DNA from: Candidatus Saccharimonadota bacterium
Lineage (GTDB): Bacteria > Patescibacteriota > Gracilibacteria > Absconditabacterales > Absconditicoccaceae
Reading direction: 5' to 3'
NCBI GenBank assembly: GCA_965231145.1
Contig: OZ246420.1
Span: 270,001-302,000, forward strand
Length of the DNA stretch: 32,000 bases
Notes under the pieces: generated by a model
The model's input: only the letters and a program-made list of their open reading frames with translations
Database searches by the model: none
Told to the model about the DNA's origin: nothing
Made by a program: the position numbers and the translations under genes
Shown: piece by piece, positions 2 to 26,409 of the stretch
Layout: the number at the start of each line of letters is the position of its first letter
How positions within the stretch are numbered: the stretch's first letter is position 1

Positions 2-2650
2 TTAAATCTCAATGGTACTGCCAATACAAGTGTAGTGACGATACAGAACACTCTGCCAGCAAGCTATACAAAAGCTGCGTGGGTAAAATTTGGTACAACC
101 AATAATGGCTCATATAGTATTTTATCAAATGGAACAACACCTTCTTCAAGTCCAGATTTTTTTTGGGTCTCCACTGGCACATATGGATGATCAGCTATCC
201 TGGGTCTCAAGGCTGGTCCTATAACGGCTGGTAATAATGCAGTGTGGAGTACAGGAGCATTTCCTACAAATACTTGGACGCATGTCGCAGTTACTTTCGA
301 TGGTTCTACTAAACAGTACAGACTCTATCAAAGTGGTGTGTTAGTCGGCCTGGCTACCGGTACTTCTTCGCATGCAAGTACTGCTCAGGCTATTGGAGCT
401 TATGCGACTACTCCTTCTGCAAATACCTTTAATTGGACAGGACAGTTAGACGATGTTCAGTTGTGGGATAGTGTATTAACAGAGGCTCAGATAGGAGAGG
501 TTATGAATCAAAATAATGGCGATGGTGTCACTCCTGCTGTTCCTGATTTCCCTACATCACTAGAAGCTTTTGCATACGATGCCAATGCCGTTTATCTTAC
601 TTGGACTGGGGTGGGAGCTACACCAGTAGTAACAGACTATCAGATAGAGTATAAGATAAACACAGGTTCTACTTGGAACGTATTTTCTGATTCGGTGAGT
701 ACAAGTACGACAGGGCTTGTGACGTGATTGATCAACAATCTTGTCTATGATTTCAGAGTGTCGGCTATCAATGCTAGCGGAACGTGACTTCCAAGCACTG
801 TAGTGTCGTGAACTGCAGTACCCTTACCGGAGCCACAATTTCTTCTTCGTTTTGAAGACACATATGACGATGTTTCGTCTCATGCAAATCACGGTACTGC
901 TACAGGAGCAATAGCAATAGTTACTGATGGAATCCGTGGCAAGGTAGCTCGTTTTATTGGTTCTATAGGTAATTATGTGACTGTTAATGTTCCCTTGGGA
1001 ACGACAGGATTTACCAAGGCGGCATGGATATATATTCCAGTTGGTACAACTATGAGTGCTCGTAATATTATCTCGAATAGCCCGTATGGAGGAAGTAACT
1101 CCAGCTTTCTTTGGGTAGATAGTTCAAAATTACAAGTTGGTCATTTCTCAGGAGCCGCGGCTCCGATCTTTGCTGCTGACCCTGCTAATATGACTTCGGG
1201 ATCCTGGGCGCATGTTGCTGTAACTTATCAGCCAGCATTGAAAAAATATATGCTTTATAGAAATGGAGCGCTTGTTGCCAGTGGCTATTCTATTCAAAAT
1301 CCAAATCCAAGTACAGGAACTATTATCTGAGCATATAATACAACCGCTGTTACATTTTCTGGATTTATGGATGATGTTGAAATGTGGAATAGCGCATTAA
1401 CTCCTGCTCAGATTCAATTAGTCTATGAGGGTAATACGTGAGTTCCGGTAGGCGTACCAGTTGCTCCTGCTAATTTTACTGGTACTACAGCAAGTAGTAA
1501 TAAAGCTACGTTAATCTGGTCGTGAGTGTCAGCTATTTTACCGGTAACTGACTATCAAATAGAGTATAAAATCAGTACCTGATCAACGTGGACGGTCTTT
1601 TCTGATGGAGTAAATACAGGTACAAGTGTCGTTGTTACAGGTCTGACGACCAATCTCTCATATGATTTTAGAGTGGCAGCGGTCAATTCTGCTGGTACTG
1701 GAGCAGTGACAAATGTTGTATCTCTCTCGCCAATTGTTGTTTCTGTGCCTCAGCCTCAATTTCTCCTGGGATTTGAAGGAAATTATGAAGATATGTCTAT
1801 CAATAGAAACAATGGAATAGCGACATGAACGCTTCCCATTATTACCGATGGCACTCGTGGGAAAGTAGTCAATATCAATGGTGTTGTAGGTAATTATGTT
1901 TGATTAAATGCCTCTCTCAATGTTTCGGGATTTACCAAAGCTGCATGGGTATATGTGGTGCCTGGTACGAATGTGGCTGCGCGTAATATATTGTCCAATG
2001 GATCCTACGGAGGAAGTAGCTCCAATTTTCTTGTCTTAGATGCGGGGGTACTGAAGGTAGGTCACTTTTCATGAGCTTCTATTGCATATTATGCGTCAGA
2101 CTCAGTAGCTTTTGGTTCATGACAATGGATACATGTAGCTACTACTTATAATTCAACTACGAAAAAATATATGCTCTATAGAAATGGAGCGCTTATTGCG
2201 AGTGGAACTGCCGTGACTGATCCTTTTGCAAGTACAGGAACTACTGTCGGAGCCTTTAATATAACAGCTGTAACATGGTCTGGATATGTGGATAATGCAG
2301 AAATGTGGGATAGTACTCTTACTCCAACTCAAGTACAGGCTGTGTATGAAGGTAATCTATGAGTGCCCGAAGATGTGCCATATGTGCCGTTAAATTTCTA
2401 TTCTCCTTCGGTAAGTACAGGAGTTGTAAATCTTATATGGTCTTGAGTTACATCTCTATTACCGGTGACTGACTATCAAATAGAGTATAAAATCAGCACC
2501 TGATCAACGTGGACAGTCTTTTCTGATGGAGTAAGTGCCAATACGACATGAGCTGTCACATGATTGATCGATAACCTTTCTTATGATTTTAGAGTGGCTG
2601 CGGTCAACTCTGCATGAACAGGTAGCTATTCAACTGTCGCTACTGCTGCG
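2..2650 (+). repeat. Three tandem coding modules of about 920 nt (about 307 aa), each LamG-like lectin + FN3; the first is truncated by the window edge.
   Basis: PQFLLRFEDTYDD at about 833 and PQFLLGFEGNYED at about 1754 are 921 nt apart. Near-identical DNA ccggt[a/g]actgactatcaaatagagtataaaatcag[t/c]acctgatcaacgtggac occurs at 1541 and 2461. Confidence 0.8.
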
Positions 2651-5600
2651 CCATGATTGTTCATTTTTTATCATATTCTTTCTAATGGTCAGAGTATTTC
2701 AGTGGGATATAACTCGACTCCTGCTCTTTCTTTGAGACAACCATATAACAATCTTGCGTTATGAGGAGGAGATCCTTTTTCGTCGTGATGACTGTTGTGA
2801 CCGCTCATAGAGTCAGGAGTAGAAAGTCCATCTGCTGGATTGGCAAACGCTTTAAGAGCGTATAGCTGAACGTTATCTCGCCCGATAATTATAGGATTGC
2901 ATGGTTTATGAGCGACATATTATTCTGATATAAAAAAGTGAACAGCGCAATATGCGAAAGGTATGGCACAGGCAGCACTGAGTAAGTCTCTTGTAGAAGC
3001 CGCGTGAGGAGTCTATCGTCCTCTTGGTGTGACGATTGAGCATGGAGAGTTTGATGCTCGGGCCTGAAATTTTATGCTGTATGAATCATATTTGGTAGAG
3101 TGGCAAAGAGATTATCAATTTGATATAAACGCACTGATGGGAACAACGGGGGTTGTTTTTCCAATGTTCTTAGATCAGGAACAATCTTCTCGAACATGAT
3201 GAGTTGCTGTAGCGCAGCTTAATGCACATAGAAATAATCCAGGAAAAATATTTCTCGTAGGTCCGAAATATCAATATTCATATGGTAGTGATAATTTGCA
3301 TCTTACTAATACGTGATCGAAATTTCTCGGCGAAATGCTAGCGAAGGTTATGTATAAGGTGGCGATACAGTGACAAACATGGAATCCGCTTATGCCTACT
3401 TCAGTCATAAGAACATGAGGTAATGCTATCCTCGTGAGTTTTAATATCCCAGTTGGAACACTCAATATCGATACGTGATCGGTAGCAGCACGTCAAAATT
3501 ATGGATTTGAATACTATCAGAGCGGAGGTACAGCTACTACAATTAGTGGAGTAAGGCTTTTGAGTTGAAATACTATGGTAGAAATAACGTTGAGTGGGGG
3601 ATTCGATGGAACTGGCCAAAAACTGCGCTATGCGTGGACGTGCTGATTTCCTGTTGTTACAGGTCAATGGGGTCATTGTGCGAATGCAAGCTCATGACTT
3701 TTTGTCGGTGGTAACATTCGTGATAGTGATTCGAGTATTTCTCCATCAGTAGATGGAACGGGACTGCCTTTATATAACTGGCTCGTCACTTTTGATGAAA
3801 GTATCATCACTCCTAGTGTTCCAAATGCGCCTACAAATGTCACAGCAGTTGCGAGTAGCTGACAAGCTATCATTTCATTTAGCTGATCGACCAATAGTGG
3901 TGGTGCAGCTATCACTGAGTATGTAGTTGTTTCCTCTCCATGATCTATTACATTTACGGGAACAGGAAGTCCTATTACGGTAACATGACTGACGAACTGA
4001 GTGAGCTATACGTTCGCAGTAGCAGCGAAGAATTATGTGGGAACAGGAACCTTCAGTAGTGCGTCAAATCCTGTAGTGCCTGCAACAATACCAACCGCAC
4101 CGACGAACGTCGCGGCGACAGCAAGCAGCTGACAAGCAGTGGTGGAATTCAGCGGCTCATCAAGTAGTTGATGGTCTACTATTTTGTATTATATAGCAAC
4201 CTCATCACCGTGAAATATAAGCTTCACCGGAACATGAAGTCCGATCACGGTAACATGATTGACGAACGGAGTCTCATATACCTTCACTGTAGAGGCATAC
4301 AATGCAATAGGAACGTGAGAAATAAGTAGTCCATCAAATGCGGTAGTTCCAGCGACAGTGCCAAATGCGCCGATCAACGTCGCGGCGACAGCAAGTAGCT
4401 GACAAGCAGTGGTAGCATTTAGCGGTTCGACTAATAGTGGTTGATCAGAGATTTTGTATTATGTGGCAACATCAACTCCGTGAAACATATCATTTACGGG
4501 GACTGGAAGTCCCATCACGGTAACGTGACTGACCAATGGAGTGAGTTATACATTCACAGTAGCAGCGGTTAATGCTATTGGTGCCGGAGCAACAGGATTA
4601 TCAAATGCTGTTATTCCTGCAACAGTACCAGGTGCGCCAACAGCTGTAAGTGCAACATCAAGTAGTGGTCAGGCGATTGTCTCATTTACCGCTCCGGCAA
4701 ATAATGGCTGAACTGGAATACTCTATTATATAGCAACCTCATCACCGTGAAATATAAGCTTCACCGGAACATGAAGTCCGATCGCGGTAACGTGATTGAC
4801 GAACGGAGTGAGTTATACATTTACAGTAGAAGCGTATAACGCGGTATGAACAGGAGCGGCAAGTAGCGCATCAAACGCAGTGATACCAGCAACGGTGCCA
4901 ACAGCACCGACGAATGCAACAGCAGTAGCATGAAGCGGACAAGCTATTATTTCATTCAGCTGATCTACCAATAGTGGGGGCTCACAGATTCTTTATTACA
5001 TCGTTACTTCATCACCAGGAAGCATCTCGCTTACGGGAAGTGAAAGCCCGATAACTATTACAGGTTTGACCAATGGCGTGAGTTATACATTTACAGTAAT
5101 AGCGGTCAATGCTATAGGAACATCATCAGCAAGTAGTGCCTCAAATGCAGTAGTTCCTGTGACACTTCCGGGTGCGCCAACAGGGGTGAATGCAACATGA
5201 GGAAATGCACAAGCTACTATTTCATTTACTCCGCCAGCAAGTAATGGAGGCACTGGTATAGTAGAATATATCGTCACATCAAATCCGTGAAACATTATAT
5301 TTACGGGGACTGAAAGTCCCATCACGGTAACGTGATTGACCAATGGAGTGAGTTATACATTTACTGTAGTAGCAAGAAATAGAGTAGGTTCGTGAGATGC
5401 AAGCGCAGTATCAAATGCTGTTATTCCTGCGACTGTCGCAAATGCACCGACGAATGTGGCAGCGACATCGAGCAGCTGACAAGCTATTGTGTCGTTTAGC
5501 TGATCGACTGATAGCGGAGGATCTGCCATCTTGTATTACATTGTAACATCAAGCACAGGAAATATTGTTGTAACATGAGCAGATAGTCCTATTACAGTCG

Positions 5601-8209
5601 CGGGATTGACGAATGGAGTTACATATGCGTTCACTGTAAGTGCTTACAATGCAGTAGGAACAGGAACAGCAAGTAGTGCTTCAAATGACGTCATGCCTAT
5701 TACGGTGCCAACAGCTCCGATCAATGTCTCCGCGACATGAGGTAATCAGCAGGCGACGATCAGATTTACTTGATCGATAAATAACGGTGGAACCTGAATC
5801 TTGTATTATGTGGCAACATCAAACCCAGGAAACATATCATTTACCGGAACATGAAGTCCGATCACGGTAACGTGATTGACTAATGGAGTGAGCTATACAT
5901 TTACCGTCGCTGCAATAAATGGAGCGGGTACGGGAGTATTGAGCAGCTCATCAAATGCTGTAATTCCAGCAACAGTAGCAAACGCACCAACCAATATCAT
6001 AGCAACAGCAAGTAGCTGACAGGCGGTTGTGTCCTTTAGTGGATCGAGTGATGATGGATGATCGACAATCCTTTATTACGTAGCGACATCAAATCCAGGA
6101 AACATTAGTTTTACTGGTACATGAACTCCAATAATTATAGAATGATTGACCAATTGAGTGTCATATACGTTTACGGTAGCTGCAAGAAATGCAGTTGGAA
6201 CCGGAGCGGCGAGTGCTGCGTCAAGCAGCGTGACACCAGTAACGATGCCATGAGTACCATCAAACATCCAGGGAGCAGGAACGCTGGGGGAAGCAATATT
6301 TGATTTTGATGCACCAGTGTATAGCGGAGGATCTGCGTTACTGTATTATACGATTAGATCAAGCACATGACAGCTAGCAAAAACTGGAGTAAATAGTCCA
6401 ATGACACTAACATGACTCACCAATGGAGTAACATATACATTCTTTATCGCAGCAGTAAATGCGCAGTGAGAAGGAACAAGCGGGGCAGTAACATTTACTG
6501 TCACAACTCCAACCACTATTCCGAGTGAGCCTACGAATATCACAGCGATAGCATGAAGTTGATCAGCATTGCTCAGTTTCAGCACCCCGACTGATAATGG
6601 AGGATTACTTATTGATTATTACGCTATTAGATCATCTACAGGTGCTCTCATAAAGACAGGAGCAAATAGCCCAATAAGGATGACATGATTACAGAATGGA
6701 ATAAGTTATGCATTTAGCGTCTCAGCAGTAAATGGAGAGTGAGAAGGTCCTAGCGACACAGTAACGATAGAGCCGATTGCTCTTATTGTAAATGGTGGTA
6801 GCATAAGTGTTATACTATGATCTACAAGTATGATAGCAAATTGGACGACAACTATTAGAGCTTCAACACAAATCCAGTATGGTATTACGACATGATATAC
6901 ATTGCAGAATACGGAAAGAGACGTATCAAATCGTGTGACCTTACATAGTGGGAATATCCAATGATTGCTTACCTGTACAAAGTATAACTACAGAATTATT
7001 GGTTCAGATGATGAAGGATATCGCTATACAGGAACAAATAGCACATTCACCACGCTAGGCTGCCCAAACAATGCGCCAATTCTCACACAAGAAGAAGAGA
7101 TTGTAGAGGTGCCAGTAGGATGAGTGTTTACTATGACATCAACATTGGGAACGACGTTAGAGCTTATTATCCCTGAGGACGTAGTACTTATCATACCAAC
7201 CCTTCTCTTCCAATGAAAACAATTGGAAGCAAGTACCGCAATTGGTTCTCTTGGCAAGCCATCTAGTGAACTTATTCAGGTGTCAGCGCTCTATGATCTC
7301 CAAGCATATAGTGGGGATACAGATCGCATGACGACCTTTGAAACAGGTCTTACGATGACGTTGAGTTATCGTGATCAGGATGTGAGTTGAGTAGATGAAA
7401 GTACATTAAAAATCTACAGTCATGATGGAACAAGCTGGTCAGAACTTGATAACTGTGTGGTAGATACAGTCAATAAGAACGTTACATGTAATACATCACA
7501 TTTCTCAGCATTCTCCATCTTTGGAGTAGCACTAGGAGTAACGCCAAGTTCTCCATCAGTATGAGGAGGTGGTGGATGAGTGTATCTGACGAAGGATGTG
7601 TGTCCAAACGGAGATTACTCACTGAGCTACTATGACAAGACATGTAGTAGTGTATGACTACCAAACATTGAACAATGAATACTTCGCCTCGCGTTGAACA
7701 AATGTACAGCACAAAATGGCGAAGAGCAGCAATCATACTGCTTCAACCGCGCGATCGGCTCTACAACGATGCCTACATTCATGCAGGCACGTTACTACGA
7801 TCAGATCACGAGAGCGCAGCTGTCGAAGATCATGGGAGAGTTTGCAAAGAATATACTCTGAAAGACTCCAGATAAGAGTAAGCAATGTACGTTTACAGGA
7901 GAAGATCCGGACGGATTAGCAGCATATATGATCCAGGCATGTCAGTTAGGACTGATGAATACAAGCAGACCAAATGACATACTGACAAGAGGAGAGTATA
8001 TGACGGTGCTTTCAAGAATGTTATATGGTAAAACGCATGAACAGACGAATGTGGAAAGTGAAGAACATCCATTCTACGAGTATCATATGGAGCAGTTGTA
8101 TAAGGAATGATTGATCAATAGAAAAGAGCCACTAGTGAAAGCACAAAGACTTGTACCATTCTTGACGCTCTACAGACTCGCACAGAAGCTAGAAAAAGAA
8201 TCAAGATAA
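2..8209 (+). CDS. Giant secreted/cell-surface adhesin-like protein, 5'-partial (2,735 aa in window, table 25). Architecture: 3x [LamG/concanavalin-like lectin + FN3], SASA/SGNH-like esterase-like domain, 11 tandem FN3, two further beta-sandwich domains, Gly linker, Cys motif, SLH-like C-terminal repeats.
   Basis: I hand-translated frame 2 codon by codon from 2 to 8209. There is no TAA or TAG until TAA at 8207-8209, and roughly 95 in-frame TGA. The four plus-strand frame-2 ORFs in the supplied track (242, 977, 2171, 7928) all lie in this frame. LamG_3-like motifs are present (LDDVQLWDSVLTEAQI, MDDVEMWNSALTPAQI, VDNAEMWDSTLTPTQV), as are FN3 motifs (TDYQIEYK...TGL..N..YDFRV.A.N..GTG). A terminator follows immediately. 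Confidence 0.85.
2650..3810 (+). other. Domain of the giant protein: putative SASA/DUF303-type (SGNH-like) carbohydrate O-acetylesterase fold.
   Basis: The ordered motifs resemble the SASA family: HILSNGQSISVGY (GQSN-like nucleophile block), GVTIEHGEFDA (QGEsD-like block) and YGSDNLHLTNTGSKFLGEMLA (D..H block). This is motif-level recognition only. Confidence 0.4.
3821..6780 (+). repeat. Array of 11 tandem FN3 domain repeats inside the giant gene, period 267-273 nt (about 90 aa).
   Basis: Repeat starts (P-x-A-P-T-N-V) are at 3821, 4091, 4361, 4628, 4898, 5168, 5438, 5708, 5978, 6248 and 6521. The consensus is ..AP.NV.AT.SSGQA.VSFSGS.NSGGS.ILYY.ATS.PGNISFTGTGSPITVTGLTNGVSYTFTV.A.NA.GTG..S..SN.V.P. 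Confidence 0.9.
7562..8209 (+). other. C-terminal anchoring module of the giant protein: GGGGGG linker, CPNGDYSLSYYDKTC motif, then SLH-like repeats.
   Basis: The translation reads ...HFSAFSIFGV..VGGGGGGVYLTKDVCPNGDYSLSYYDKTC...YCFNRAIGSTTMPTFMQARYYDQITRAQLSKIMGEFAKNILG...AAYMIQACQLGLMNTSRPNDILTRGEYMTVLSRMLYG...EQLYKEGLI. The (a..Gl......itR.e...m..r) pattern resembles S-layer-homology-type wall-binding repeats. Confidence 0.45.
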
Positions 8210-8878: not shown

Positions 8879-8920
8879 ATTGGCCCAATTATAGAAAAAG
8901 TCAACACTGATGCAAGCGCA

Positions 8921-8943
8921 GAAAAACCCGGCTTTAGCCGGGC
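8921..8943 (-). terminator. Rho-independent terminator downstream of rlmN.
   Basis: The minus strand reads gcccggctaaagccgggtttttct (stem cccggc/gccggg, loop of 4, T-run). Confidence 0.75.
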
Positions 8944-8949
8944 TTCTGT

Positions 8950-8986
8950 ATTATATTGAGAATTTCGAATTCAACATTTCGAATTA
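8950..8986 (-). repeat. Stop-codon-abutting 37-nt conserved motif, copy A (after rlmN).
   Basis: The minus strand reads TAA TTCGAAAT GTTGAA TTCGAAAT TCTCAATATAAT. The TAA is the rlmN stop, and the terminator hairpin follows 6 nt later. Confidence 0.8.
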
Positions 8987-10205: not shown

Positions 10206-11231
10206 TTACAGCTGTTTTTCTATCTCTGCGTTGATCTCAGCAGCTAGGTCTTTGACTTGTGTATTGAAGTCCGGCTGCACAGGAACTTTAGCTCCGGCAG
10301 CGTACATGTGGCCGCCACCGTTGAAATGGAGTGCAACTTTCTGGACATCGATTCTTCTGCCGTCAGCCATATAGCCTGATCTGAACGATAATCCAACCTT
10401 GTCATCTGAACCTTTTCTGATGATAGCAATGACTGGTATAGCTTTCAAAGGTCTCAGATAACTAAAGATGATGGCATCTACTTCGTCTTTATCCATTCAT
10501 CGGCTTAGTATTTCTTCTGTGGTATATCGAGCATAGCAGATATGTTTTTCGCGAGTCATTCTCTGTATCATGAGCTTTGATACTTCGATAGAAGATCGGT
10601 CGCTGTTATTGAAAATATGTTGGATGACCCAATCTTTCTTTGCGCCGTATTCTATTAACCCGACTGCATTTTTCATCGTTCTGACAGAGTCTTTTTCATA
10701 CTGAAAGTTTCCCGTATCAGTCACGAGTCAGATATACCGGTAGGTCGCAATTGTCTCATCTATGAACTCTGGTCGACATTGTATACTTATCTCATAGAGG
10801 AGCTCGCAGCAACTCGAGCTGTCGACATCTTTCAGGAGAACCACCGGTTCAAAGACATCGTCTCCGATATGATGATCGATGATGAGTTTTTGTTTAGCAG
10901 TAAAATACTCCTCATGTCCTTCCGTGATCTTGTTGATGCGTCTATAGCCAGTAAAGTCTACAAATACTATCAGATCCCACGCATCGCTATAGTCAAACTC
11001 TGTACTAATTTTTTCTAGCCCCGGTATAAAATTATATGATCTTCATGGTTTTGTTGTAGTAAAATATCAGATTTCTTTCCCAAGTTTCTCTAGCAGTGTC
11101 CCAAATCCTAGCATCGAACCTATAGCATCACCATCAACGCTTTCGTGGCCAAAAATAGCGATCTTATTCGCATTGCTTATTTTCGTCTTACATTGATCGA
11201 GGAGTTCACTTGAAAACATGGTTATTTTCAT
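10206..11231 (-). CDS. nrnA: DHH/DHHA1 family phosphoesterase (NrnA-like oligoribonuclease / pAp phosphatase), about 341 aa.
   Basis: The family motifs are present: IAIFGHESVDGDAIGS, IIDHH, LVTDTGNFQY and DHHA1 GGGHMYAAGA. Four track ORF pieces share one frame and are joined by TGA at 10497, 10728, about 11043 and 11067. The start could be any of several ATGs at 11219-11261. Confidence 0.75.
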
Positions 11232-11305
11232 CAAATATAAAGAAGCAGCTAGATTATACATGATAACATTCTATATGCTATCATCTACTTGCTAACTGCT
11301 ATATG

Positions 11306-13780
11306 CTATTTGGTAATCAGTCCCTTTTCTACTAAGAACTTTGCAAGATCTCCGAAGAGTCTACCTGCAGTATATTCACCGTACTGATTTGTTCTTGGTC
11401 TACGAACGTGGATGACGACAATATATTTCAAATCATCCCTTGTAACCATGCCTACGAATGAACCATCTGTCCATCCATTTCCGTTCATATACTTTCCTTT
11501 GAAGGCAATCTGAGATGTTCCTGTTTTTCCACCTATCGTATAACCTGGGATCCCGTACATTTTTGTAAGCCCTCCATAGACGTCCTGAAAGAGAACTTCT
11601 CTGATTTTCTCACTCGTTTCTGGTTTGATAATCTGGTTTCCAACCTTAGGAGTATTCACAATATATTGCTTCGTCACGGGATCATAAATCTTATCTATGA
11701 TCGTTGGCTTTACGATATATCCGCCATTTACCAGCGCGCTATAACCTGCAGCAATCTGTACTGGTGTCGCAAGCATACCTTGTCCGAACGCATTATTATA
11801 GAATTGAGAAAGCGGGATGTTGTTTGGGCCTTCGATCTTACCCTGTGTTTCACCGGCAAGCTCTATACCTGTCTGCTTACCAAATCCAAACTTATCCATA
11901 AAGTTATAGAATACTTCTTTTCCTATTTTCTGAGCGATTCTTACCATTCCCACGTTACATGAGTAGACTACTGCATTTATCAGCGGATGAAATCCGCCGC
12001 AGTGTTTTTTGTCTGCGTTATTAATAAGCTGAACCACGCCATTTCCAATATCGAGTTTCAACTGATTGTTATCTTGGTAGTAGTCATAAAGACTTACTTC
12101 ATCGCTATCGAGACCAAAGGCCATCGTAAATGGTTTGATGATCGAACCTGGTTCGTATGGCTGCGCAATGTTTTTGTCGATAAATACCTGAGCTCCCATC
12201 TTATTTGCAGCGACATATTTTTGTAGTGATGGATCTTTTCTCTGGTCATATGTTGTCGGTATGATTTTTTCTCCCGAGAGGAAGAAGACTGGAATATCTC
12301 TATAGGTGTCGTCGTTTATAATAGTACTTTCAGTAAGGCTTAATGGCTTCAGTTTATATGCTTCCTGATAGTTGTTTGGATTAAAGGTTGGATAGTTCGC
12401 CGATGCTATGATCTTACCATTGTGAGGATCCATGATGATGGTAGATATTTCGTCAGCGTTGAATATCTTTGTATAGTATTCTTGTAGTTGCTCAAGCTTC
12501 CTCTGGATGAGAGGATCTATCGTAAGATAGACATCACGTCCATCGATAGGCTGTGTGATAGCAATATCATTTGATGCGATTTGTCCGAGGAGCGGCGTAG
12601 AAAGTCATTGTATTTCTCCTGCTTTTCCTTTGAGAAGCTCATCGAAATATTGTTCTATGCCATAGAGAGCATAGCCATCTTTTGCGTAAAACCCCAATAT
12701 GTTTGCTGCGAAGTGATTGTAAGGGTAGTATCTTGTTTCGTATTTTTCCAATCCAAGACCATGCAGTAGGGGAATGCCTTTAACGCAGTTTTCTCCTGCA
12801 TTTTCACACGTGTTTTTCACGTTATAGTTAGCATTGATGAGGTCATTGATCTTTTTCGCGAGCGTAGCATTGAGCCCATCAGCGAGCTTTACGTATCTGT
12901 TTTCCTGTTGGACAAATAAGTTAGAGATCTGTTTTTCTGAATATGCATAACTGTATTTCATGAGGATCGAGTTGATCTCTTTTTTCGCATTGACGACGTT
13001 GATTGCTTTAGGTGGTACGACATAGACGTAGTGTTTGCTTTCGATGCTTACGTATGGCAAATTCATCCCTGAGAGGTCTGCAAGAAACTGATCATTTTCA
13101 AAGTAACCGAGATAGTTTTTTTCCTTCACTCCAATGGAAATCTTATTGTCCAGGGTCGCTTTGATCATGTTCATGGCTTGATCTCCTGAGAAGGCATTGA
13201 TGATTTTCGTCCTTTCCTGGTCGATGATGCTATTTTCTTCGACGATCTGTTGCTGCATAAGATCAATTCCTGTTTGTGACCGATAGTTCTCTCCAATCTC
13301 TTGTGTATAGAAGACCGTCTTTGGAGCAGGGAGGATCTGTAGCTGAGCAAAGCGTTCAATGTTTTCTATACAACCAAGTTTATCTACATCTACTAGTCCA
13401 TTTTTTTCACACAGGTGCGCATAGATAATCGGAGAGAGGATATCTATAACTCTTGGTTTGTCCCAGACAAACTTCGGATCGATAAAGACGTTGTACATTT
13501 CCATGTTTTGGGTGAGAGCGATGGGTTTATTGCTTGCATCAGTAAGATAGATATTTCCTCTCTTCGCTTTGATGTTTGTTTTATTGAAATGCTGTGCAGT
13601 CATCACATCGCTATAGTTTTTCGCCTGTATGATCTGCAGATAGAATAGTCTGATGGTAAGTACAAGAAAAAGAAAAGAAAGGATCCATAAAAGCTGAGCT
13701 TCTCTGGTGATTTTTCTTTTACCAAGACCGAATTTTTCTAGTATCTTATGAGCGAGCTTATTTTTTTTCTCTAATAGCAT
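11306..13780 (-). CDS. Class B penicillin-binding protein (FtsI/PBP2-type peptidoglycan transpeptidase), 824 aa.
   Basis: An N-terminal TM helix (LLWILSFLFLVLTIRLFYL) and RGNIYLTD are present. The transpeptidase motifs are SIIK (SxxK), SCN (SxN) and KTGT. ORFs 12605..13780 and 11306..12433 are in frame and joined through TGA at 12605-12607 (…GEIQ-G-LSTPLLG…DVYLTIDPLIQ). Confidence 0.85.
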
Positions 13781-13897
13781 TTGTGAGCGATTTAGTGATA
13801 TGGTGAAGTTATATGAAAATAGTCGGGGTTTACAAATAATTTCCTCAATAATAGAGGAGTAAAATCAAAAATTATGATCTGATATAATGTATGTTTT

Positions 13898-14094
13898 ACT
13901 CCTGCCGGAGGGGCGTTACTTTTTAGCATATCCCTAAAAAGTAACCAAAAAGGTCTAGCCGATTGTAGCACTCTAATATGTGTAACAATCAAGCATTGAC
14001 TACGAAAGCATTTCGTCCTCACGAACTCAATGCTTTACGACAAACTACTTATCCATACACGACTCCGGAGACGTGGGGTACAATCGGCGGGAGT
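13898..14094. ncRNA. Candidate structured RNA element, copy 1 (unclassified; paralogous to 26208..26398).
   Basis: Closing stem ACTCCTG/CGGGAGT (13898-13904 with 14088-14094). Perfect 12-bp hairpin GTTACTTTTTAG/CTAAAAAGTAAC (13915-13945). 9-bp stem CCGATTGTA/TACAATCGG (13959-67 with 14079-87). Conserved core hairpin AAGCATTGA..ACGAAAgcaTTTCGT..TCAATGCTT (13991-14035). The strand is undetermined; an extended -10 (TGATATAAT at 13880-13888) favours plus. Confidence 0.5.
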
Positions 14095-14108
14095 CTGTAT
14101 GGCATATT

Positions 14109-14165
14109 AAAAAACTCGGTACTTACCGAGCTTATTATATAATAAAAAAATCGGCGGATGCCGAC
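14109..14165 (-). terminator. Two tandem rho-independent terminators after the small membrane protein gene.
   Basis: The minus strand reads gtcggcatccgccgattttttt (14144-14165) and gctcggtaagtaccgagtttttt (14109-14132). Confidence 0.75.
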
Positions 14166-14170
14166 TTTCA

Positions 14171-14856: not shown

Positions 14857-15252
14857 ATGCAAGAAAAATTTCGTCTTCGAAGTGATCTCAATGAGATATC
14901 ATTAACTGATGCAGAGATGATTGCGTTAACAGATGCATTGGAAAAATATGATACGGTAAAAGCATACCATAGATATCATTACCTTTTCAAAGGATATCAT
15001 GACCTCGCGCATGGCAAAATAGATGATGAGGCATTTTTTACGTTGGGAGATATATCTTCGGATCGTCCTGTGTTTGCAACAGCTCCTGGAGTATCTCTTG
15101 AGGCTCTCTTTTTGATAGAAGAGGATATAGCCCATAGTACGCTCTACATTGTAGAGCAAAGCGCATCTTCTTATTATAACGGAAAGAGCAAAGAAAGAGC
15201 AAAGCTAGAGAAGCTTTTAGCTGAACATAATTCAAAGTTGTTAGTTATCTAA
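14857..15252 (+). CDS. Hypothetical protein, 131 aa (the start is taken at ATG 14857 rather than the track start at 14785).
   Basis: This is an uninterrupted ORF. The upstream 72 nt of the track ORF is the TTACAC repeat array, which is more plausibly regulatory. I recognise no family. Confidence 0.45.
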   Translation: MQEKFRLRSDLNEISLTDAEMIALTDALEKYDTVKAYHRYHYLFKGYHDLAHGKIDDEAFFTLGDISSDRPVFATAPGVSLEALFLIEEDIAHSTLYIVEQSASSYYNGKSKERAKLEKLLAEHNSKLLVI

Positions 15253-15342
15253 TCTTAAAAATCAGAAAGGTTGAATGTTAAATGATAAATACCTTATTGT
15301 ATTTCACATTTAAAATTATTTTTTAGTTTGTAAGTGTATGAG

Positions 15343-18187: not shown

Positions 18188-19534
18188 ATGGTAAGTCTCG
18201 AAGATATCAAACTGCCTCCTCATAATATAGATGCGGAAAAGTGATTGCTCTGTTGTATTCTTCTCGATAATGAGGTGATGTTTTTGTGTGACAGCATGCA
18301 CTTATTGCCGGAAGATTTCTACCAGAAAGAACACCAGATGATCTTTGAAGGTATGAAAGATCTCTGGGGGAGTCGTAAGACGATAGATATAATTACTCTC
18401 GGAGATGCTCTAGTAAAAAAGCAATATTTTGATCTTGTCGGGGGAAATGATTACCTTTATGAGATATCAACGGCAGTCATGACGACTGCAGTGGGTGGAG
18501 AGTACTCAAGGATGGTAAAGGAGAAGGCGATCCTCAGGAATGTACTTAAGGTTGCACAATGAATTATCGGAGATGTCTATGAGCATAGGGAAACGATAGA
18601 GATTATTGATACTATTCAGAAGCGTATCTTCGAGTTGACACAGTTTGACATGTCAGATTCGACAAAGCACATTAAAGAGATCTTGGAGCAGCGTGTAGAA
18701 GAGCATATGGAGCTGGTGGATAACCCAGAAAAGCTCAATGAACATAAGATTATGTCCGGGTACTTTAAGCTCGATGACTATACAAGTGGCTTTAAACCTG
18801 GAGAGTTGGTTATCCTTGCAGCCCGTCCTTCTATGGGTAAAACGGCTTTTGCCCTCAATCTTTTGCTCAATGCAGCACTCAAACATGGTAAATCGGTGGC
18901 ATTTTTTTCTCTGGAAATGGGTAGTGAGCAGATTGTAGACAGATTGTTATCAGCGGTTTCGGAGATTCATATGGCTAGAATGCAGAAGGGACAGCTCAAT
19001 GAGTCTGACTTTGCAGAGCTGGGAGAGGCTATGGAAAAGCTAGGTGATACCAGTATTTTCATCGATGATCAAGGTGGTGTTACTATCCCGGCTCTTAAGT
19101 CTAAGCTTAGAAAGCTGAAAATCGAACGTGGACGCCTCGATATGGTAGTTATCGACTACCTTCAGCTCATGAGCGGCGGCAATAGTAAGTTCGCCGGAAA
19201 CAGAGTTCAGGAGATTTCCGAGATTTCTCGTGGTCTAAAAGAGCTTGCAAGGGAGCTAAAAATCCCTATTATTGCACTCTCCCAGCTTTCACGTAATGTG
19301 GAAGCACGTGTGGACAAAAAACCACAACTTTCCGACCTCAGAGAGTCTGGGTCGATCGAACAAGATGCCGATACGGTGATCATGCTCTATAGAGACGAGT
19401 ACTATGACCCGGATACGGATAGAAAATGAACGGCAGATGTCATCATCAGGAAGAACAGAAATGGTCAGGTGGGTGAGGTTGAGCTCTCGTTCAGAGGAGA
19501 AATACAAAAATTTTATGACGTTCAAAAATCTTAA
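18188..19534 (+). CDS. dnaB: Replicative DNA helicase DnaB, 448 aa.
   Basis: The N-terminus reads LPPHNIDAEK-G-LLCCILLD. Walker A is AARPSMGKTAF. Also present are DYLQLM, SQLSR and RESGSIEQDAD, and the C-terminus DRK-G-TADVIIRKNRNGQVGEVELSF. Three in-frame TGA fall at 18242, 18560 and 19427. Confidence 0.9.
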
Positions 19535-20361
19535 TGTCTCCATCGTGTCATCCAAAGAGATGAAATATCACGATAGTGGTGCTGTTCCTTATGATAGCGT
19601 CAGGGCTTCTTGCCCTGCTGACTTTACAGTTTGTAAAGCACTTCCTTTCTTCTAGTGCTGTCTTGGATCACTACTATAAAGCCTACTATATGGCTCGTGG
19701 AGGTATGGAGGCGATGCTTACTCAAGCAAATCTTCGTGGCTATGGATTTGAATACAATCTGGCTGGCTCACCCGTAGCAGCTAACTATTACTCAGGTTGC
19801 TCTGCGCACGGAATCTGTCAGTTGCAAGGGCGTACGATCGCAAAAGGCGAAAGTATTAACGCTACGGTTCACAGCTTATCAGATCGCACATGCTCGCCAG
19901 AGGCTATGATTCTACTCCAGCCAGGGCAAACGAGCGCCTATCCACTGTTTTACGACAGGGGAGAGGGACCAACCCTCTCATTTGACCCGGTAGAAGATAC
20001 CGACTATGAGAAAAACGCCCACAATGGGTACCAAGTTACCGTGAGTGGAGGAAAATTGGCTGCGTTTTTATATGATGCAGGGATAGGGTCATTTGGCCAG
20101 ATAACTGCTACCGATTATATAGTGCCACCAAGCTCTTCACATTTGTTTAGTACACAATCTATTACATATACACACCGGCTTATTCTTTCGAATCCGGTAG
20201 ATAATCCTGTTGCTGTGTCATATTGCCTTCAAAGCGATGAGACGGCGCAAAAGCTCGTCGGGAATTTTACCACAATCAGTTCCCAGGCGACCTACGAGGA
20301 TACAACGGTCGGACTGACAGCAATGAAGAAATTTGTCTTTCCTAGTGCCTTTATCCAGTAG
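19534..20361 (+). CDS. PilX-like / pseudopilin-like membrane-anchored protein, 275 aa.
   Basis: The ATG at 19534 overlaps the dnaB stop (TAATG). The N-terminus is KR-G-NITIVVLFLMIASGLLALLTL, followed by YYKAYYMARGGMEAML, which resembles the PilX N-terminal pattern (hydrophobic helix then A..AEaG). The assignment is tentative. Confidence 0.45.
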
Positions 20362-20384: not shown

Positions 20385-21236
20385 ATGTATAAGTATTTGA
20401 AAGTTATTGTCGCAACATGAATTATCTCTACTGCTCTCTATTCTATAGCATTTGCTTATGATCTGACGGCTCATGACACCAATCTTGTCTGGCAGCTCAA
20501 TCAGGAAGTAGATAAAGCTATCCAGAGTACTGAAAGATCTCCTGTCTTCATCGAGAAAGCAGCATCAAAATTTAGTACCCTTGTGGATAGCCTGTCGGCT
20601 GATCCTAGAAAAAGGGCAATTATGAAAAATGTCTTTGAACACACGCACAATCAGCTTGTGCTCGCTACGGATACAAGTGTCCGTGCATTTAAGCAGGCGT
20701 TTGTGAACAAATATATAGATAATCTTCAGGGTGATGCCTTTGAGCTCAGGCTCCAGTGGTGTGTCCAGAAATTTGATATGGTAAATACGATTGCCAAGAA
20801 ATATGATGTTCCACCAGCTCTTATCCTTGCAACATGGTTTATGGAAGCAAGTTGTAGACAGGCAAACCCAGATAATAAAAATGGTATCTTCCAGATTACC
20901 TCTCACTACTATGAGCCAGGACCTATTGATGATGCTGAGCTTGAAGAGCAGATCATCGACTTCATAGAGTTCTCTCGTGCAAAGTGGAGCTGGTATCACA
21001 AGAGTAATCCAGATCGTCAAATAACACTTACCTATAAGAAGTGGGATCTTGAAAGTCTTGAGACTCAGGGAGCCCTCTACAATAGCGTGGGTAGTAGTAT
21101 CAATGCATGGCCACTGAGAGCTACGAACCAATACTATAACTGGGGCAATTTCTCTCCAGAGTGGAGATCGAGTGTAAAAGATGGTATGATAACTGCATTT
21201 GTGAGACTCTTAAATTGGGAACTACAGAACAGATAA
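20385..21236 (+). CDS. Lytic transglycosylase / lysozyme-like protein with N-terminal signal anchor, 283 aa.
   Basis: The N-terminus MYKYLKVIVAT-G-IISTALYSIAFA is recovered through TGA at 20418. The SLT-like catalytic block is LILATWFMEASCRQANPDNKNGIFQIT (family pattern E-S....GlmQi). Confidence 0.55.
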
Positions 21237-21270
21237 TTCGAAATGTTGAATTCGAAATTCTAAATATAAT
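21234..21270 (+). repeat. Stop-codon-abutting 37-nt conserved motif, copy B (after the transglycosylase-like gene).
   Basis: The sequence is TAA TTCGAAAT GTTGAA TTCGAAAT TCTAAATATAAT. It differs from copy A at one position and is followed by a terminator hairpin. Confidence 0.8.
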
Positions 21271-21275
21271 ATAGT

Positions 21276-21308
21276 AAAAAAACTGAGAGCGTTAGCTCCA
21301 GTTTTTTT
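21276..21308. terminator. Bidirectional terminator between the transglycosylase-like gene and murD.
   Basis: The sequence aaaaaaACTGaGAGCgttaGCTCcCAGTttttttt forms a stem with one mismatch, flanked by A and T runs. Confidence 0.7.
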
Positions 21309-21333
21309 ATATTTAATATTCAACATTTAACAT

Positions 21334-22584: not shown

Positions 22585-22625
22585 ACCTTAAAGTTTATAA
22601 AGTTAAAGGTTCATAAAGTTGAAAG

Positions 22626-23390
22626 TTATTCGTAATTATAGGTCTCAAGATCAAGGCGAGAAACATCATAGAGTATTTTCTTTTCAAGGTTATACCAGCA
22701 GTTTTCATAGATGTTCTTCTTGTTTTCCAGGTTGAAGAAGTTCTTTTGCATCATATATGCAGCATGCTTCATCATGACTCATGGATAGCAAAATAAGACC
22801 CAATCTTGTCTGTCTTTTATATAATCATTTTGATGAAAGCTAATCATTCACTTTATGCCTAGATAGATCATGAGGTGTTCTTCTAGAAAGAAATGGATCT
22901 GATTTTCGTCCAATGCTTTACCAAAGAGTTGAGCATCTTCGAGCATATATTTCTGAAATAATTTGTCTTTATCATAGATCTTTCTTAATTCTCTTAGCAT
23001 TTCTGGAAATTGTAGTCCTCACTTTATATCAAGATAGAGCTGATTTCGAACTCCAAATGAAAAGAAGCCTTCTGAATATTTCTTATTTCTTTTTAATAGC
23101 TTAATAAAACCATTTTTATGTTCTATCTCTAATTGCATATATTTGTTTTTTACTTCGCTGGTAGAGGCTTGATTGTAAAGATAGAGAAAATCTGTGTAAC
23201 TGAAATGAGCGCCTATGCCATTGTCTATTCTTTGGGTGTCAGGCTTATTTCAAAAGATTTCTATATGCTCAAAGCACTTTCCCGGCAATTGTTTTGTCTG
23301 AATATTGCTGATAGAAATGCCAAACCATAGTAATCACATGCCTTTTGGCATGTTCCCTATATCAAAAAACTGATTAGTAGCTGGAGCCAT
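22626..23390 (-). CDS. Hypothetical protein, 254 aa (visible only under table 25).
   Basis: My hand translation runs from ATG at 23390 to TAA at 22626 with five in-frame TGA and no TAA or TAG. The sequence is MAPATNQFFDIGNMPKGM-G-LLWFG...LDLETYNYE. I recognise no family. Confidence 0.5.
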
Positions 23391-23422
23391 AAGAAGCCCT
23401 TATGATTAAATGCTTTGAGTAT

Positions 23423-23455
23423 AAAAAAACTCCCGCCTGTTGCAAGGTAGGAGTT
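23423..23455 (-). terminator. Rho-independent terminator downstream of gyrA.
   Basis: The minus strand reads aactcctaccttgcaacaggcgggagttttttt, an 11-position stem with one mismatch and one wobble, followed by a T-run. Confidence 0.7.
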
Positions 23456-23459
23456 CCTT

Positions 23460-23496
23460 ATTATATTGAGAATTTCGCATTTAGAATTTCGAACTA
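23460..23496 (-). repeat. Stop-codon-abutting 37-nt conserved motif, copy C (after gyrA).
   Basis: The minus strand reads TAG TTCGAAAT TCTAAA TGCGAAAT TCTCAATATAAT. The length and register match copies A and B, and the TAG is the gyrA stop. Confidence 0.75.
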
Positions 23497-26016: not shown

Positions 26017-26063
26017 TTCTTCCTGAAAAACAATAACTAAAAGTGCGTTCGAATAACCAATTC

Positions 26064-26091
26064 ACTATAGAGATTTAGTATGTGTTTGCAA
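26064..26091 (-). promoter_or_regulatory. Candidate sigma70-type promoter for gyrA.
   Basis: The minus strand reads TTGCAA-16 nt-TATAGT, about 50 nt upstream of the gyrA ATG. This is sequence resemblance only. Confidence 0.3.
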
Positions 26092-26398: not shown

Positions 26399-26409
26399 TT
26401 TTTTCTACG

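What the first reader, a model, noticed from the sequence alone, without database searches (positions are those of the whole stretch)
8950..8986. 37-nt conserved motif that starts exactly at the stop codon of three unrelated genes
The three copies are:
- rlmN (8950-8986, minus): TAA TTCGAAAT GTTGAA TTCGAAAT TCTCAATATAAT.
- The transglycosylase-like gene (21234-21270, plus): TAA TTCGAAAT GTTGAA TTCGAAAT TCTAAATATAAT.
- gyrA (23460-23496, minus): TAG TTCGAAAT TCTAAA TGCGAAAT TCTCAATATAAT.

Length and register are identical. The protein C-termini before the stops are unrelated. Each copy is followed within 5-8 nt by a different terminator hairpin. The element has two 8-mers on a 14-nt period and ends in TATAAT. 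A fixed phase relative to the stop codon is unusual for REP/BIME-type repeats. It hints at a role in termination of translation or transcription, in 3'-end processing, or as a protein-binding site. In an organism with only UAA/UAG stops this deserves a look.
Basis: seen in the sequence. Interest (0 to 1): 0.7.

Follow-up and report, generated by a model that had tools for sequence, protein, structure and literature searches.

The report
Heptamer repeat arrays after stop codons
The 37-base "motif" is real, but it is one recently copied family of short 7-base tandem repeats that fill the gap between stop codon and terminator in a small group of Absconditabacteria (SR1), and it is probably not a conserved termination signal.

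Summary
Three near-identical copies (30-34 of 35 bases) start directly after the stop codons of rlmN, an SLT-like gene and gyrA. Each lies in the sense orientation upstream of a different terminator hairpin. The genome reads TGA as sense and belongs to the Absconditabacteria/SR1.

The motif is five degenerate heptamers in phase with the stop codon (xxxxTAA|TTCGAAA|TGTTGAA|TTCGAAA|TTCTCAA|TATAATA), with AAT every 7 bases. It has no RNA structure above shuffles, no Rfam match and no credible promoter call.

It is not conserved in relatives. The gyrA site is empty in three related genomes. At the rlmN stop, four close relatives each carry a different 5-unit heptamer array in the same slot, upstream of a hairpin that is shared by three of them. 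Other array families sit after other stops, and some recur at different genes in different genomes.

Period-7 arrays occur at 14-29% of gene ends in this subclade. Base-shuffled copies of the same sequences give 1.3%, and more distant relatives give 0-6%.

My best reading is simple-sequence DNA made by replication slippage and copied between gene ends. The stop codon and the terminator bound the DNA that is free to vary. A HutP-like protein platform or a stop-targeting mini-element is not excluded. This is a new variant of a known kind and of moderate interest.

The parts
8949..8986 (-). Family F1 copy 1: the rlmN stop TAA (8984-8986) plus a 35-nt array of 5 heptamers, TTCGAAA TGTTGAA TTCGAAA TTCTCAA TATAATA.
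   Evidence: Identical in L143 and L144.
8917..8947 (-). Intrinsic terminator of rlmN (CAGAAGCCCGGC-UAAA-GCCGGGUUUUUCUG). It is homologous to the hairpin after rlmN in genomes B and C.
   Evidence: Fold -22.9 kcal/mol, z -3.1; alignment with L147 and L145.
21234..21271 (+). Family F1 copy 2: the stop TAA of the SLT-like gene plus a 35-nt array that differs from copy 1 at one base (TTCTAAA).
21274..21310 (+). Two-way terminator shared with the convergent Mur-ligase gene.
   Evidence: Fold -22.5 kcal/mol, z -5.5; terminator scan.
23459..23496 (-). Family F1 copy 3: the gyrA stop TAG plus the array TTCGAAA TTCTAAA TGCGAAA TTCTCAA TATAATA. It is a 35-nt insertion relative to genomes B, D and F.
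23422..23458 (-). Intrinsic terminator of gyrA. It is homologous to the hairpin that directly follows the gyrA stop in L133 and L132.
21306..21333 (-). Related array (F5) directly after the Mur-ligase stop: ATGTTAA ATGTTGA ATATTAA ATATAAA. It shares the AAT-N4 skeleton and the 11-mer AAATGTTGAAT with F1.
   Evidence: (lag-7 score 0.61).
15253..15293 (+). Related array (F5b) after the stop of ORF 14857-15252: …AAGGTTG AATGTTA AATGATA AATACC.
   Evidence: (lag-7 score 0.55).
11244..11308 (-). Family F4: the stop TAG of the penicillin-binding-protein gene plus (NNNNTAG)x5 (CATATAG CAGTTAG CAAGTAG ATGATAG CATATAG). This array forms the 5' arm of a long hairpin followed by a U-rich tail.
   Evidence: -26 kcal/mol, z -3.05. 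The same family occurs in L147 (6 units) and L156.
22585..22625 (-). Short-period (7/9/16 nt) array filling the whole spacer between the stop of ORF 22626-23390 and the Mur-ligase start.
   Evidence: The same unit family occurs after gyrB in L153.

Best explanation
The motif is a non-coding, degenerate array of five heptanucleotide units. It is simple-sequence, minisatellite-like DNA of the heptamer class already known from other bacteria. It belongs to one family (F1) among several that occupy the spacer between stop codon and terminator in one subclade of Absconditabacteria.

Proposed mechanism:
1. Arrays arise and are kept periodic by slipped-strand replication of 7-nt units.
2. They persist through speciation while their sequence turns over quickly.
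3. They are occasionally copied, without exchange, to other gene ends in the same genome. The likely route is template switching or short-patch gene conversion between arrays. This produced the three near-identical F1 copies.
4. The exact register with the stop codon arises because the stop is the 5' limit of what selection tolerates, and in the empty sites seen the terminator begins almost at once. The only permissive place is therefore flush with the stop.
5. In several families the stop codon is itself in phase with the repeat unit (TAA/AAT or TAG every 7 nt).

The specific sequence is not a termination or processing signal.

Shown: the anatomy, the periodicity, the enrichment after stops, the lack of conservation, the copying within one genome, and the absence of structure or promoter.

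Inferred: slippage as the generator, the copying mechanism, and the absence of a sequence-specific function.
For: - Period 7 is real. Tandem Repeats Finder gives period 7. Lag 7 is the best lag at 8 of the window's gene ends.
- Enrichment after stops. Period-7 windows number 14 in 3.1 kb of post-stop DNA, 7 in 10.5 kb of other intergenic DNA and 13 in 89 kb of coding DNA. Other lags give 0-3 after stops.
- Restriction to a subclade. Gene ends with a lag-7 score of at least 0.5: A 5/26, B 6/40, C 4/14, E 1/7, against D 1/37, F 0/10, G 1/17. The shuffle null is 1.3%.
- The sequence is not conserved.
  - The gyrA site is empty in B, D and F, where the homologous (B, D) or a different (F) terminator starts 0-14 nt after the stop.
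  - The rlmN slot holds TTCGAAA-type (A), AAAGAGC-type (B), TTAACAA-type (C) and TTCACAA-type (E) arrays. In A, B and C they are 35-36 nt long and precede a homologous hairpin.
  - Slot identity between genomes is 15-24 of 35, against 42-53 of 60 in the flanking coding sequence.
- Copying within genomes. F1 copies are 30-34 of 35 identical while their flanks are unrelated.
- Copying or movement between genes. The AAAGAGC family lies after rlmN, the SLT-like gene and HisRS in B, but after the PBP and DHH genes in C, with a core 27 of 28 identical.
- Unit-number change. F4 has 5 units in A and 6 in B.
- Several unrelated families coexist in one genome. What they share is the period and the position, not the sequence.
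- No RNA structure (z -0.5, -0.95, 0.02), no Rfam family, no promoter call for copies 1 and 3.
- Published background. Heptanucleotide units are the commonest class of long simple-sequence repeats in prokaryotes, and polymerase slippage was proposed as their source (Mrazek 2007, as summarised in PMC4679880).
Against: - Copying a 35-nt block into a site with no flanking homology (the gyrA site) is not a well-documented outcome of slippage or gene conversion. No mechanism was demonstrated here.
- The strong preference for post-stop DNA over other intergenic DNA, the fixed sense orientation (8 of 8 copies for F1 plus the AAAGAGC family), and the maintained length of about 5 units at rlmN in three or four lineages could equally reflect selection for a function.
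- In array-free gene ends the median distance from stop to hairpin is 17 nt. The 'no room' argument therefore holds for gyrA but not for every site. The F4 insertion after the trigger-factor gene in B is flush with the stop even though room was available.
- Only about 150 kb from 7 genomes could be examined. No whole genome was scanned.
Confidence: 0.5

Rival explanations
1. The arrays are binding platforms on the mRNA for an oligomeric RNA-binding protein. The protein would read one triplet every 7 nt, using HutP/TRAP-like logic. Binding just 5' of the terminator stem would modulate termination (antitermination) or 3'-end stability.
For: - Five arrays in the window share an invariant AAT every 7 nt with 4 variable bases between.
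- F4 is UAG-N4 repeated 5-6 times and forms the 5' arm of terminator-like hairpins.
- HutP binds XAG triplets separated by 4-nt spacers. Its site I is single-stranded and lies 5' of the GC-rich terminator stem (PMC2425495).
- The arrays lie in the sense orientation directly upstream of terminators.
- The period is maintained despite sequence turnover.
Against: - The triplet differs between families in the same genome (AAU, UAG, purine-rich ARA), so one reader cannot explain them all.
- F1 has no XAG triplets and no second site 3' of the stem.
- The SLT-like copy precedes a convergent gene, so antitermination there has nothing to read into.
- Orthologous genes in relatives do without arrays.
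- No HutP, TRAP or similar family appears among the Pfam hits listed for the called genes of the fetched loci. These cover only a small part of each genome.
Confidence: 0.15
2. F1, and perhaps the other families, is a non-autonomous mobile mini-element. An enzyme encoded elsewhere would insert it, with a target preference for TAA/TAG or for the junction between stop codon and terminator.
For: - Near-identical copies have unrelated flanks.
- There are clean filled-versus-empty sites: gyrA in A against B, D and F; trigger factor in B against C, D and G.
- Insertions are flush with the stop even where more room exists.
- The same family sits at different genes in different genomes.
- In F1 and in some AAAGAGC and TTAACAA copies a second in-frame TAA/TAG lies at the 3' edge of the array. 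This could be a 3-nt duplication.
- Precedent: MIRUs are described as mobile repeats that insert at start codons in a fixed register (PMC12548453).
Against: - There are no terminal inverted repeats and no hairpin in F1.
- At 35 nt it is shorter than typical MITEs.
- The putative TAA duplication is absent at the trigger-factor insertion and inconsistent across copies.
- The internal 7-nt periodicity, and the graded similarity of the rlmN arrays between genomes (15-24 of 35), fit divergence in place better than repeated replacement.
- No transposase was seen next to any copy.
Confidence: 0.15
3. The arrays are selected as passive, unstructured spacers of arbitrary sequence. They would move the terminator hairpin about 35 nt away from the stop codon, so that a ribosome waiting on UAA/UAG does not cover the 5' arm of the hairpin. 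These organisms are expected to have RF1 only.
For: - Array-bearing ends have the stem 34-47 nt from the stop, against a median of 17 nt (many 0-10 nt) without arrays.
- The arrays are A-rich and predicted to be unstructured.
- The sequence is free to vary while the length at rlmN stays at 35-36 nt in three lineages.
Against: - Many genes in the same genomes keep terminators 0-10 nt from the stop.
- Arrays also occur between co-directional genes with no separate terminator.
- This idea does not explain the 7-nt period or the copying of one sequence.
Confidence: 0.08
4. The motif encodes a C-terminal extension added when the stop codon is read through. The frame stays open for 10 codons, FEMLNSKFSI / FEILNAKFSI, and then reaches TAA. 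The extension could act, for example, as a degradation tag.
For: In copies 1 and 3 the 30 nt after the stop are open in frame and end in TAA. The Leu codon difference TTG/CTA is synonymous.
Against: - Copy 2 has an in-frame TAA after 8 codons.
- The orthologous rlmN slots give unrelated peptides, and one has a stop at codon 6.
- The differences between copies are swaps of whole heptamer types rather than codon-wise changes.
- An open 10-codon stretch is expected by chance in more than half of such sequences.
Confidence: 0.02
5. The terminal TATAAT is a -10 promoter element that drives a short transcript or the downstream gene.
For: A perfect TATAAT ends all three copies. Copy 2 gives a 9-of-12 promoter-like match using TTGAAT and the following TATAGT.
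Against: - No acceptable -35 lies at 16-18 nt in copies 1 and 3, and promoter-like hits in the region are not above shuffles (39 against 47.9).
- Transcription would run straight into a terminator 1-8 nt away.
- The rlmN downstream gene has its own TTGCAT-16-TATAAT promoter after the terminator.
Confidence: 0.03

Closest known systems
Long simple-sequence repeats with heptanucleotide units (Mrazek 2007), including the intergenic TAACTGA direct repeats of Beggiatoaceae, Cyanobacteria and Bacteroidetes (MacGregor 2015, PMC4679880)
   Same: - Short tandem arrays of 7-nt units (2-6 copies).
- Confined to intergenic DNA next to gene boundaries.
- Patchy, lineage-specific distribution.
- No known function; slippage was proposed as the source.
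   Different: - These arrays are degenerate, with units about 50-70% alike rather than perfect repeats.
- They sit after stop codons rather than before start codons.
- Several sequence families coexist.
- Whole arrays are copied between genes.
HutP binding site of the Bacillus subtilis hut terminator (and, more loosely, TRAP sites)
   Same: Triplets repeated every 7 nt (XAG-N4). The site lies 5' of a GC-rich terminator stem (PMC2425495). F4 is literally UAG-N4 repeated 5-6 times.
   Different: - F1 carries AAU, not XAG.
- No second site was seen 3' of the stem.
- No HutP homologue was seen.
- Many genes are affected rather than one operon, and the sequences are not conserved between relatives.
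MIRUs (mycobacterial interspersed repetitive units)
   Same: Dispersed short repeats that sit in a fixed register with the boundary codon of a neighbouring gene and are thought to be mobile (PMC12548453).
   Different: MIRUs are described there as inserting at start codons, with an internal ORF that becomes translationally coupled to the gene. F1 is 35 nt, lies at stop codons, has no coupled ORF and is internally 7-nt periodic.
REP/BIME and MITE-type intergenic repeats
   Same: Dispersed, short, intergenic, at 3' ends of genes and often next to terminators.
   Different: F1 is not palindromic and has no terminal inverted repeats. The F4 arrays, in contrast, do form hairpins.

Membership tests
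Heptanucleotide simple-sequence (tandem) repeat | Head-to-tail units of 7 nt | tested here: met
   Tandem Repeats Finder gives period 7, 4.1-4.4 copies and 72-73% matches at 21235-21265 and 23465-23493. Lag-7 scores are 0.47-0.55 and lag 7 is the best lag. The arrays are degenerate, so they sit at the weak end of the class.
Heptanucleotide simple-sequence (tandem) repeat | Non-coding location and unit-number variation between relatives | tested here: met
   The arrays are enriched after stops. F4 has 5 units in genome A and 6 in genome B. No unit-number variant of F1 itself was available.
REP/BIME | Imperfect palindrome able to form a stem-loop | tested here: not met
   The 37-mers fold at -4.1, -4.1 and -1.5 kcal/mol, with z -0.54, -0.95 and 0.02 against shuffles. 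The 6-bp UUCGAA pairing is lost in copy 3.
MITE | Terminal inverted repeats and a consistent target-site duplication | tested here: not met
   The ends TTCGAAAT… and …CAATATAATA are not inverted repeats. A possible TAA duplication is inconsistent across sites.
HutP/TRAP-type triplet-repeat RNA site | At least 3 XAG triplets with 4-nt (HutP) or 2-3-nt (TRAP) spacers | tested here: not met
   F1 has AAU (once AGU) every 7 nt and no XAG triplet. The neighbouring family F4 does meet this feature.
HutP/TRAP-type triplet-repeat RNA site | A cognate oligomeric RNA-binding protein encoded in the genome | not testable with these tools
   Only about 42 kb of this genome could be read. No such Pfam family appears on the called genes of the fetched loci.
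Sigma-70 promoter | -35 and -10 hexamers 16-18 nt apart | tested here: not met
   There is no call for copies 1 and 3. Copy 2 gets a 9-of-12 match only by using the TATAGT beyond the motif. Hits in the region are not above shuffles.
Known structured RNA (Rfam) | Match to a covariance model at its gathering score | tested here: not met
   No matches in the whole window.
MIRU-like codon-registered repeat | An internal ORF coupled to the neighbouring gene at its boundary codon | tested here: not met
   The frame after the stop closes after 8-10 codons, well before any downstream start, and two copies have no co-directional downstream gene nearby.

The most novel reading that the evidence does not exclude
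In this Absconditabacteria subclade, which reads TGA as a sense codon, the DNA immediately 3' of stop codons is written or rewritten by a dedicated process. That process could be a stop-codon-targeting copy-and-paste element. Alternatively, there could be selection for arrays with one triplet every 7 nt that are read by an oligomeric HutP-like RNA-binding protein. In the second case the arrays would form a genome-wide layer of terminator or 3'-end control whose recognition sequence co-evolves rapidly between species.
Probability: 0.15. Interest if true: 0.7.

Novelty: new variant of a known kind. Interest (0 to 1): 0.4.

Why it matters
If the arrays are only slippage products, they are still useful.
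- They mark the one stretch of neutral DNA in very compact candidate-phyla-radiation genomes.
- They evolve fast enough to serve as strain markers.
- They warn annotators not to read a repeated post-stop sequence as a regulatory motif.

Two features are not predicted by simple slippage: the copying between gene ends, and the strict placement after the stop in the sense orientation. They point either to an unrecognised way of moving about 35 nt of DNA, or to an RNA-level function next to terminators. I found no paper that mentions heptamers together with Absconditabacteria.

Tried and rejected
- **Genome-collection scan** with TTCGAAATNNNNAATNCGAAATTCT. It returned almost only plain (TTCGAAA)n-type heptamer repeats from many phyla (Acidobacteriota, Patescibacteria, Chloroflexota and others). 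None was this element, and the window's own genome was not reached.
- **Metagenome scan** and **viral scan** with the 3' half of the motif. The metagenome hits had unrelated flanks and are chance matches. The viral hits were not inspected.
- **Rfam**, at gathering score over the whole window. Nothing found.
- **tRNA/tmRNA search.** None found.
- **RNA structure of the motif.** Not different from shuffles.
- **Promoter reading.** Not supported.
- **Read-through peptide.** Rejected because copy 2 and the orthologous arrays have early stops and give unrelated peptides.
- **Stops in all three frames every 7 nt.** True for F4 and for the TTAACAA array, but not for F1, which has only the one in-frame TAA (worked out from the sequences).
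- **Target-site duplication (TA or TAA).** Inconsistent across sites.
- **Antisense partner of F1.** None in the 42 kb of genome A that could be read.
- **Reaching the 1.1-Mb NCBI contig of this genome.** This failed; the look-ups returned only Logan contigs of 5-32 kb.

Full report
**1. The observation**

The three sites read exactly as reported. A search for TTCGAAAT-N6-TKCGAAATTCT, allowing 3 mismatches, finds only these three sites in 32 kb. Dinucleotide-preserving shuffles give 0.06.

The window reads TGA as a sense codon. With only TAA and TAG as stops, the fragmented table-11 ORFs join into full-length genes, and one 2724-aa ORF holds 96 in-frame TGA codons. GyrA and RlmN homologues carry the source names Absconditabacterales or candidate division SR1. 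From general knowledge this lineage uses genetic code 25.

Pfam confirms RlmN and GyrA. The third gene has only a sub-threshold SLT_2 hit.

In each case the block starts at the base after the stop. The last 60 coding bases are unrelated between copies (19-22 of 60), the next 35 bases are 30-34 of 35 identical, and the following 30 bases are unrelated again.

A different strong hairpin with a U-tract follows each copy. The same sequences occur in independent assemblies of three sequencing runs.

**2. Anatomy**

The motif is a row of five degenerate heptamers in phase with the stop codon: xxxxTAA | TTCGAAA | TGTTGAA | TTCGAAA | TTCTCAA | TATAATA. In the gyrA copy the units are TTCGAAA | TTCTAAA | TGCGAAA | TTCTCAA | TATAATA. 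Tandem Repeats Finder reports period 7.

The differences between copies are swaps of heptamer types, not scattered point changes.

- The 37-mers have no RNA structure beyond shuffles (z -0.54, -0.95, 0.02). The 6-bp UUCGAA/UUCGAA pairing of copies 1 and 2 is broken in copy 3.
- There is no Rfam match.
- There is no acceptable -35 element for the terminal TATAAT in copies 1 and 3.

**3. It is one of many such arrays**

Other gene ends in the window carry period-7 arrays that also start at the stop:

- after the penicillin-binding-protein gene: TAG CATATAG CAGTTAG CAAGTAG ATGATAG CATATAG (family F4);
- after the Mur-ligase gene: TAA ATGTTAA ATGTTGA ATATTAA ATATAAA;
- after ORF 14857-15252;
- after ORF 22626-23390.

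Aligning the three F1 copies with the Mur-ligase and ORF 14857 arrays shows an invariant AAT every 7 nt, with four variable bases between.

Across about 103 kb from six loci in five related genomes:

| Location | Period-7 windows (35 nt) | DNA scanned |
|---|---|---|
| 45 nt after stops | 14 | 3.1 kb |
| other intergenic | 7 | 10.5 kb |
| coding | 13 | 89 kb |

Lags 5, 6, 8 and 9 give 0-3 windows after stops.

**4. Comparison with relatives**

I reached relatives by searching for GyrA, RlmN and trigger-factor homologues and fetching the contigs that encode them. I label them as follows:

| Label | Source loci | Relatedness to the window |
|---|---|---|
| A | window, L121, L143, L144, L153 | same genome |
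| B | L133, L147, L156 (one sample; assumed one genome) | RlmN 99%, GyrA 94% |
| C | L145, L146 | RlmN 97% |
| E | L150-L152 | RlmN 94% |
| D | L132, L148 (GCA_030429145.1) | RlmN 88%, GyrA 84% |
| F | L134 | GyrA 88% |
| G | L157, L158 | reached through trigger factor |

*gyrA.* B, D and F have no array. In B and D the homologous terminator follows the stop after 1-14 nt. In F a different terminator follows directly. The copy in A is therefore a 35-nt insertion, or else the others lost it precisely.

*rlmN.* A, B, C and E each carry a different heptamer array that starts at the stop. In A, B and C the array fills a 35-36-nt slot upstream of a homologous hairpin. E lacks that hairpin.

- A: TTCGAAA-type
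- B: CTCAAAAATCAAAGAGCAGAGAGCAAAATTACATAA
- C: TTACTAA TTAACAG TTAATAA TTAACAA TTCAATAG
- E: TTCACAA CTCATAG TTCACAA TTCACAA …
- D: the stop abuts an unrelated terminator

Slot identity between genomes is 15-24 of 35 (33% expected from composition). The adjacent coding sequence is 42-53 of 60 identical. The rlmN arrays therefore look like fast-diverging descendants of one ancestral array. Each has kept its 7-nt period, which implies continuing homogenisation within arrays.

*SLT-like gene.* A has F1. B has the AAAGAGC family. D has nothing comparable.

*Families recur at non-orthologous genes.*
- The AAAGAGC family lies after rlmN, the SLT-like gene and HisRS in B, but after the PBP and DHH genes in C. 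The core is 27 of 28 identical.
- F4 lies after the PBP gene in A (5 units) and B (6 units). It also lies after the trigger-factor gene in B, where C, D and G have none.

*Frequency.* Gene ends with a lag-7 score of at least 0.5:

| Genome | Gene ends with array |
|---|---|
| A | 5/26 |
| B | 6/40 |
| C | 4/14 |
| E | 1/7 |
| D | 1/37 |
| F | 0/10 |
| G | 1/17 |

Mononucleotide shuffles give 1.3%, and random coding positions give 0.25%.

**5. What this means for the stop-codon register**

The register is real, and other families share it. The sequence is not conserved, so it is not a sequence-specific signal.

Two ordinary constraints explain much of the register.
- The coding sequence sets a hard 5' limit.
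- At the empty gyrA sites (B, F) and at rlmN in D, the terminator starts 0-5 nt after the stop. An insertion that spares both must therefore sit flush with the stop.

In several families the stop codon is also in phase with the unit: TAG every 7 nt in F4, and TAA+T forming the first AAT in F1. In F4 the last 7 coding bases (CAAATAG) already resemble the unit, which fits seeding by slippage at the stop.

The constraint argument is incomplete.
- Array-free gene ends have a median stop-to-stem distance of 17 nt.
- The F4 insertion after the trigger-factor gene in B is flush although room existed.

**6. Mechanism**

*Best-supported (about 0.5).* The arrays are heptanucleotide simple-sequence DNA. 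Slipped-strand replication generates them and keeps them periodic. This is the class reported as the commonest long simple-sequence repeat in prokaryotes (Mrazek 2007, as summarised in PMC4679880). They are tolerated only in the spacer between stop and terminator of these compact genomes. Now and then they are copied to other gene ends by template switching or short-patch conversion.
- Shown: period, position, turnover, copying within a genome, lack of structure, lack of a promoter.
- Inferred: the generating and copying mechanisms, and the absence of a sequence-specific function.

*Rivals.*
- A platform for an oligomeric RNA-binding protein that reads one triplet every 7 nt. HutP binds XAG-N4 repeats 5' of the GC-rich terminator stem (PMC2425495). 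F4 is UAG-N4 repeated 5-6 times and forms the 5' arm of terminator-like hairpins. Against this, F1 carries AAU, the families differ within one genome, and relatives manage without arrays.
- A stop-targeting mobile mini-element. The MIRU precedent is of this kind (PMC12548453). Against this, there are no inverted ends and no consistent duplication.
- A passive spacer that keeps the hairpin clear of a terminating ribosome.
- A read-through peptide. The evidence is against it.
- A promoter. The evidence is against it.

**7. Known relatives and novelty**

The nearest known kinds are heptamer simple-sequence repeats such as the intergenic TAACTGA repeats of Beggiatoaceae, Cyanobacteria and Bacteroidetes (PMC4679880).

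These arrays differ from them in several ways. They are degenerate. They lie after the stop rather than before the start. They come in several co-existing families. Whole arrays are copied between gene ends.

I found no paper that mentions heptamers together with Absconditabacteria. I rate this a new variant of a known kind, with interest 0.4.

The most novel reading still open is a dedicated writing process, or a rapidly co-evolving protein-RNA layer at terminators. I put this at about 0.15.

**8. Limits**

- Only about 42 kb of genome A and about 110 kb of relatives were read.
- Gene calls outside the window come from my own simple code 25 ORF caller.
- No expression data exist.

Noticed in passing
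window 13781-14170 and 26017-26459 (core about 13984-14045 and 26300-26365, read on the - strand): Two long intergenic regions share a nearly identical core of about 65 nt: TAAGCATTGAGTT(C)GTGAGGACGA(A/G)ATGCTTTC(G/A)TAGTCAATGCTT. It forms an imperfect hairpin. There is no credible Rfam match. It may be an unannotated structured RNA or a repeat element.
   Followed up: partly
window 11228-11308 (-); L156 865-952 (-); L156 10177-10262 (+): UAG-N4 heptamer arrays (F4) pair with an inverted partial copy downstream. They form long hairpins (-25 to -29 kcal/mol, z -3 to -5.6); at the first two sites a U-rich tail follows, so these look like terminators built from arrays. The ATG at 11261, which I took as the start of the DHH-family gene, lies inside this hairpin, so the true start may be further downstream.
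   Followed up: partly
L156 about 12712-12737 (-), inside the Der/EngA gene of genome B: A 31-nt stretch that is 29 of 31 identical to the AAAGAGC-family array after rlmN lies in frame inside the Lys/Glu-rich C-terminal tail of Der (…TQKSKSKEQNQ…). Array sequence can therefore be coding, or can be copied from coding low-complexity tails.
   Followed up: partly
L153 about 6975-7061 (after gyrB, genome A) and window 22585-22625: A 9-nt-period array (AGTTCATAA AGTTTATAA AGTTCGTAA AGTT) follows gyrB and is itself followed by its inverted copy. The same unit family fills the spacer between ORF 22626-23390 and the Mur-ligase start.
   Followed up: no
L001-L120, e.g. L007, L033, L050, L071, L073, L077, L081, L083, L091: Tandem arrays of (TTCGAAA)n, (AATCCGA)n and (AATTCGC)n type are common in intergenic DNA of many phyla (Acidobacteriota, Chloroflexota, Planctomycetota, Patescibacteria). 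In Patescibacteria they form long inverted repeats with arms such as TTCGAAA TTCTAAA TACGAAA TTCTAAA CAAAT. This looks like a recurrent class of heptamer-built hairpins that I have not seen described.
   Followed up: partly
window 35-8209 (+): A giant ORF runs off the left end of the window. It is more than 2724 aa long, has 96 in-frame TGA codons, and contains a 270-nt tandem repeat of 3.3 copies at 3959-4833.
   Followed up: no
window 19426-19534: The DnaB ORF (18188-19534) and the next ORF (19426-20361) overlap by 109 nt in my code 25 ORF list. The start of the second gene is probably further downstream; the orthologue in L132 abuts dnaB.
   Followed up: no
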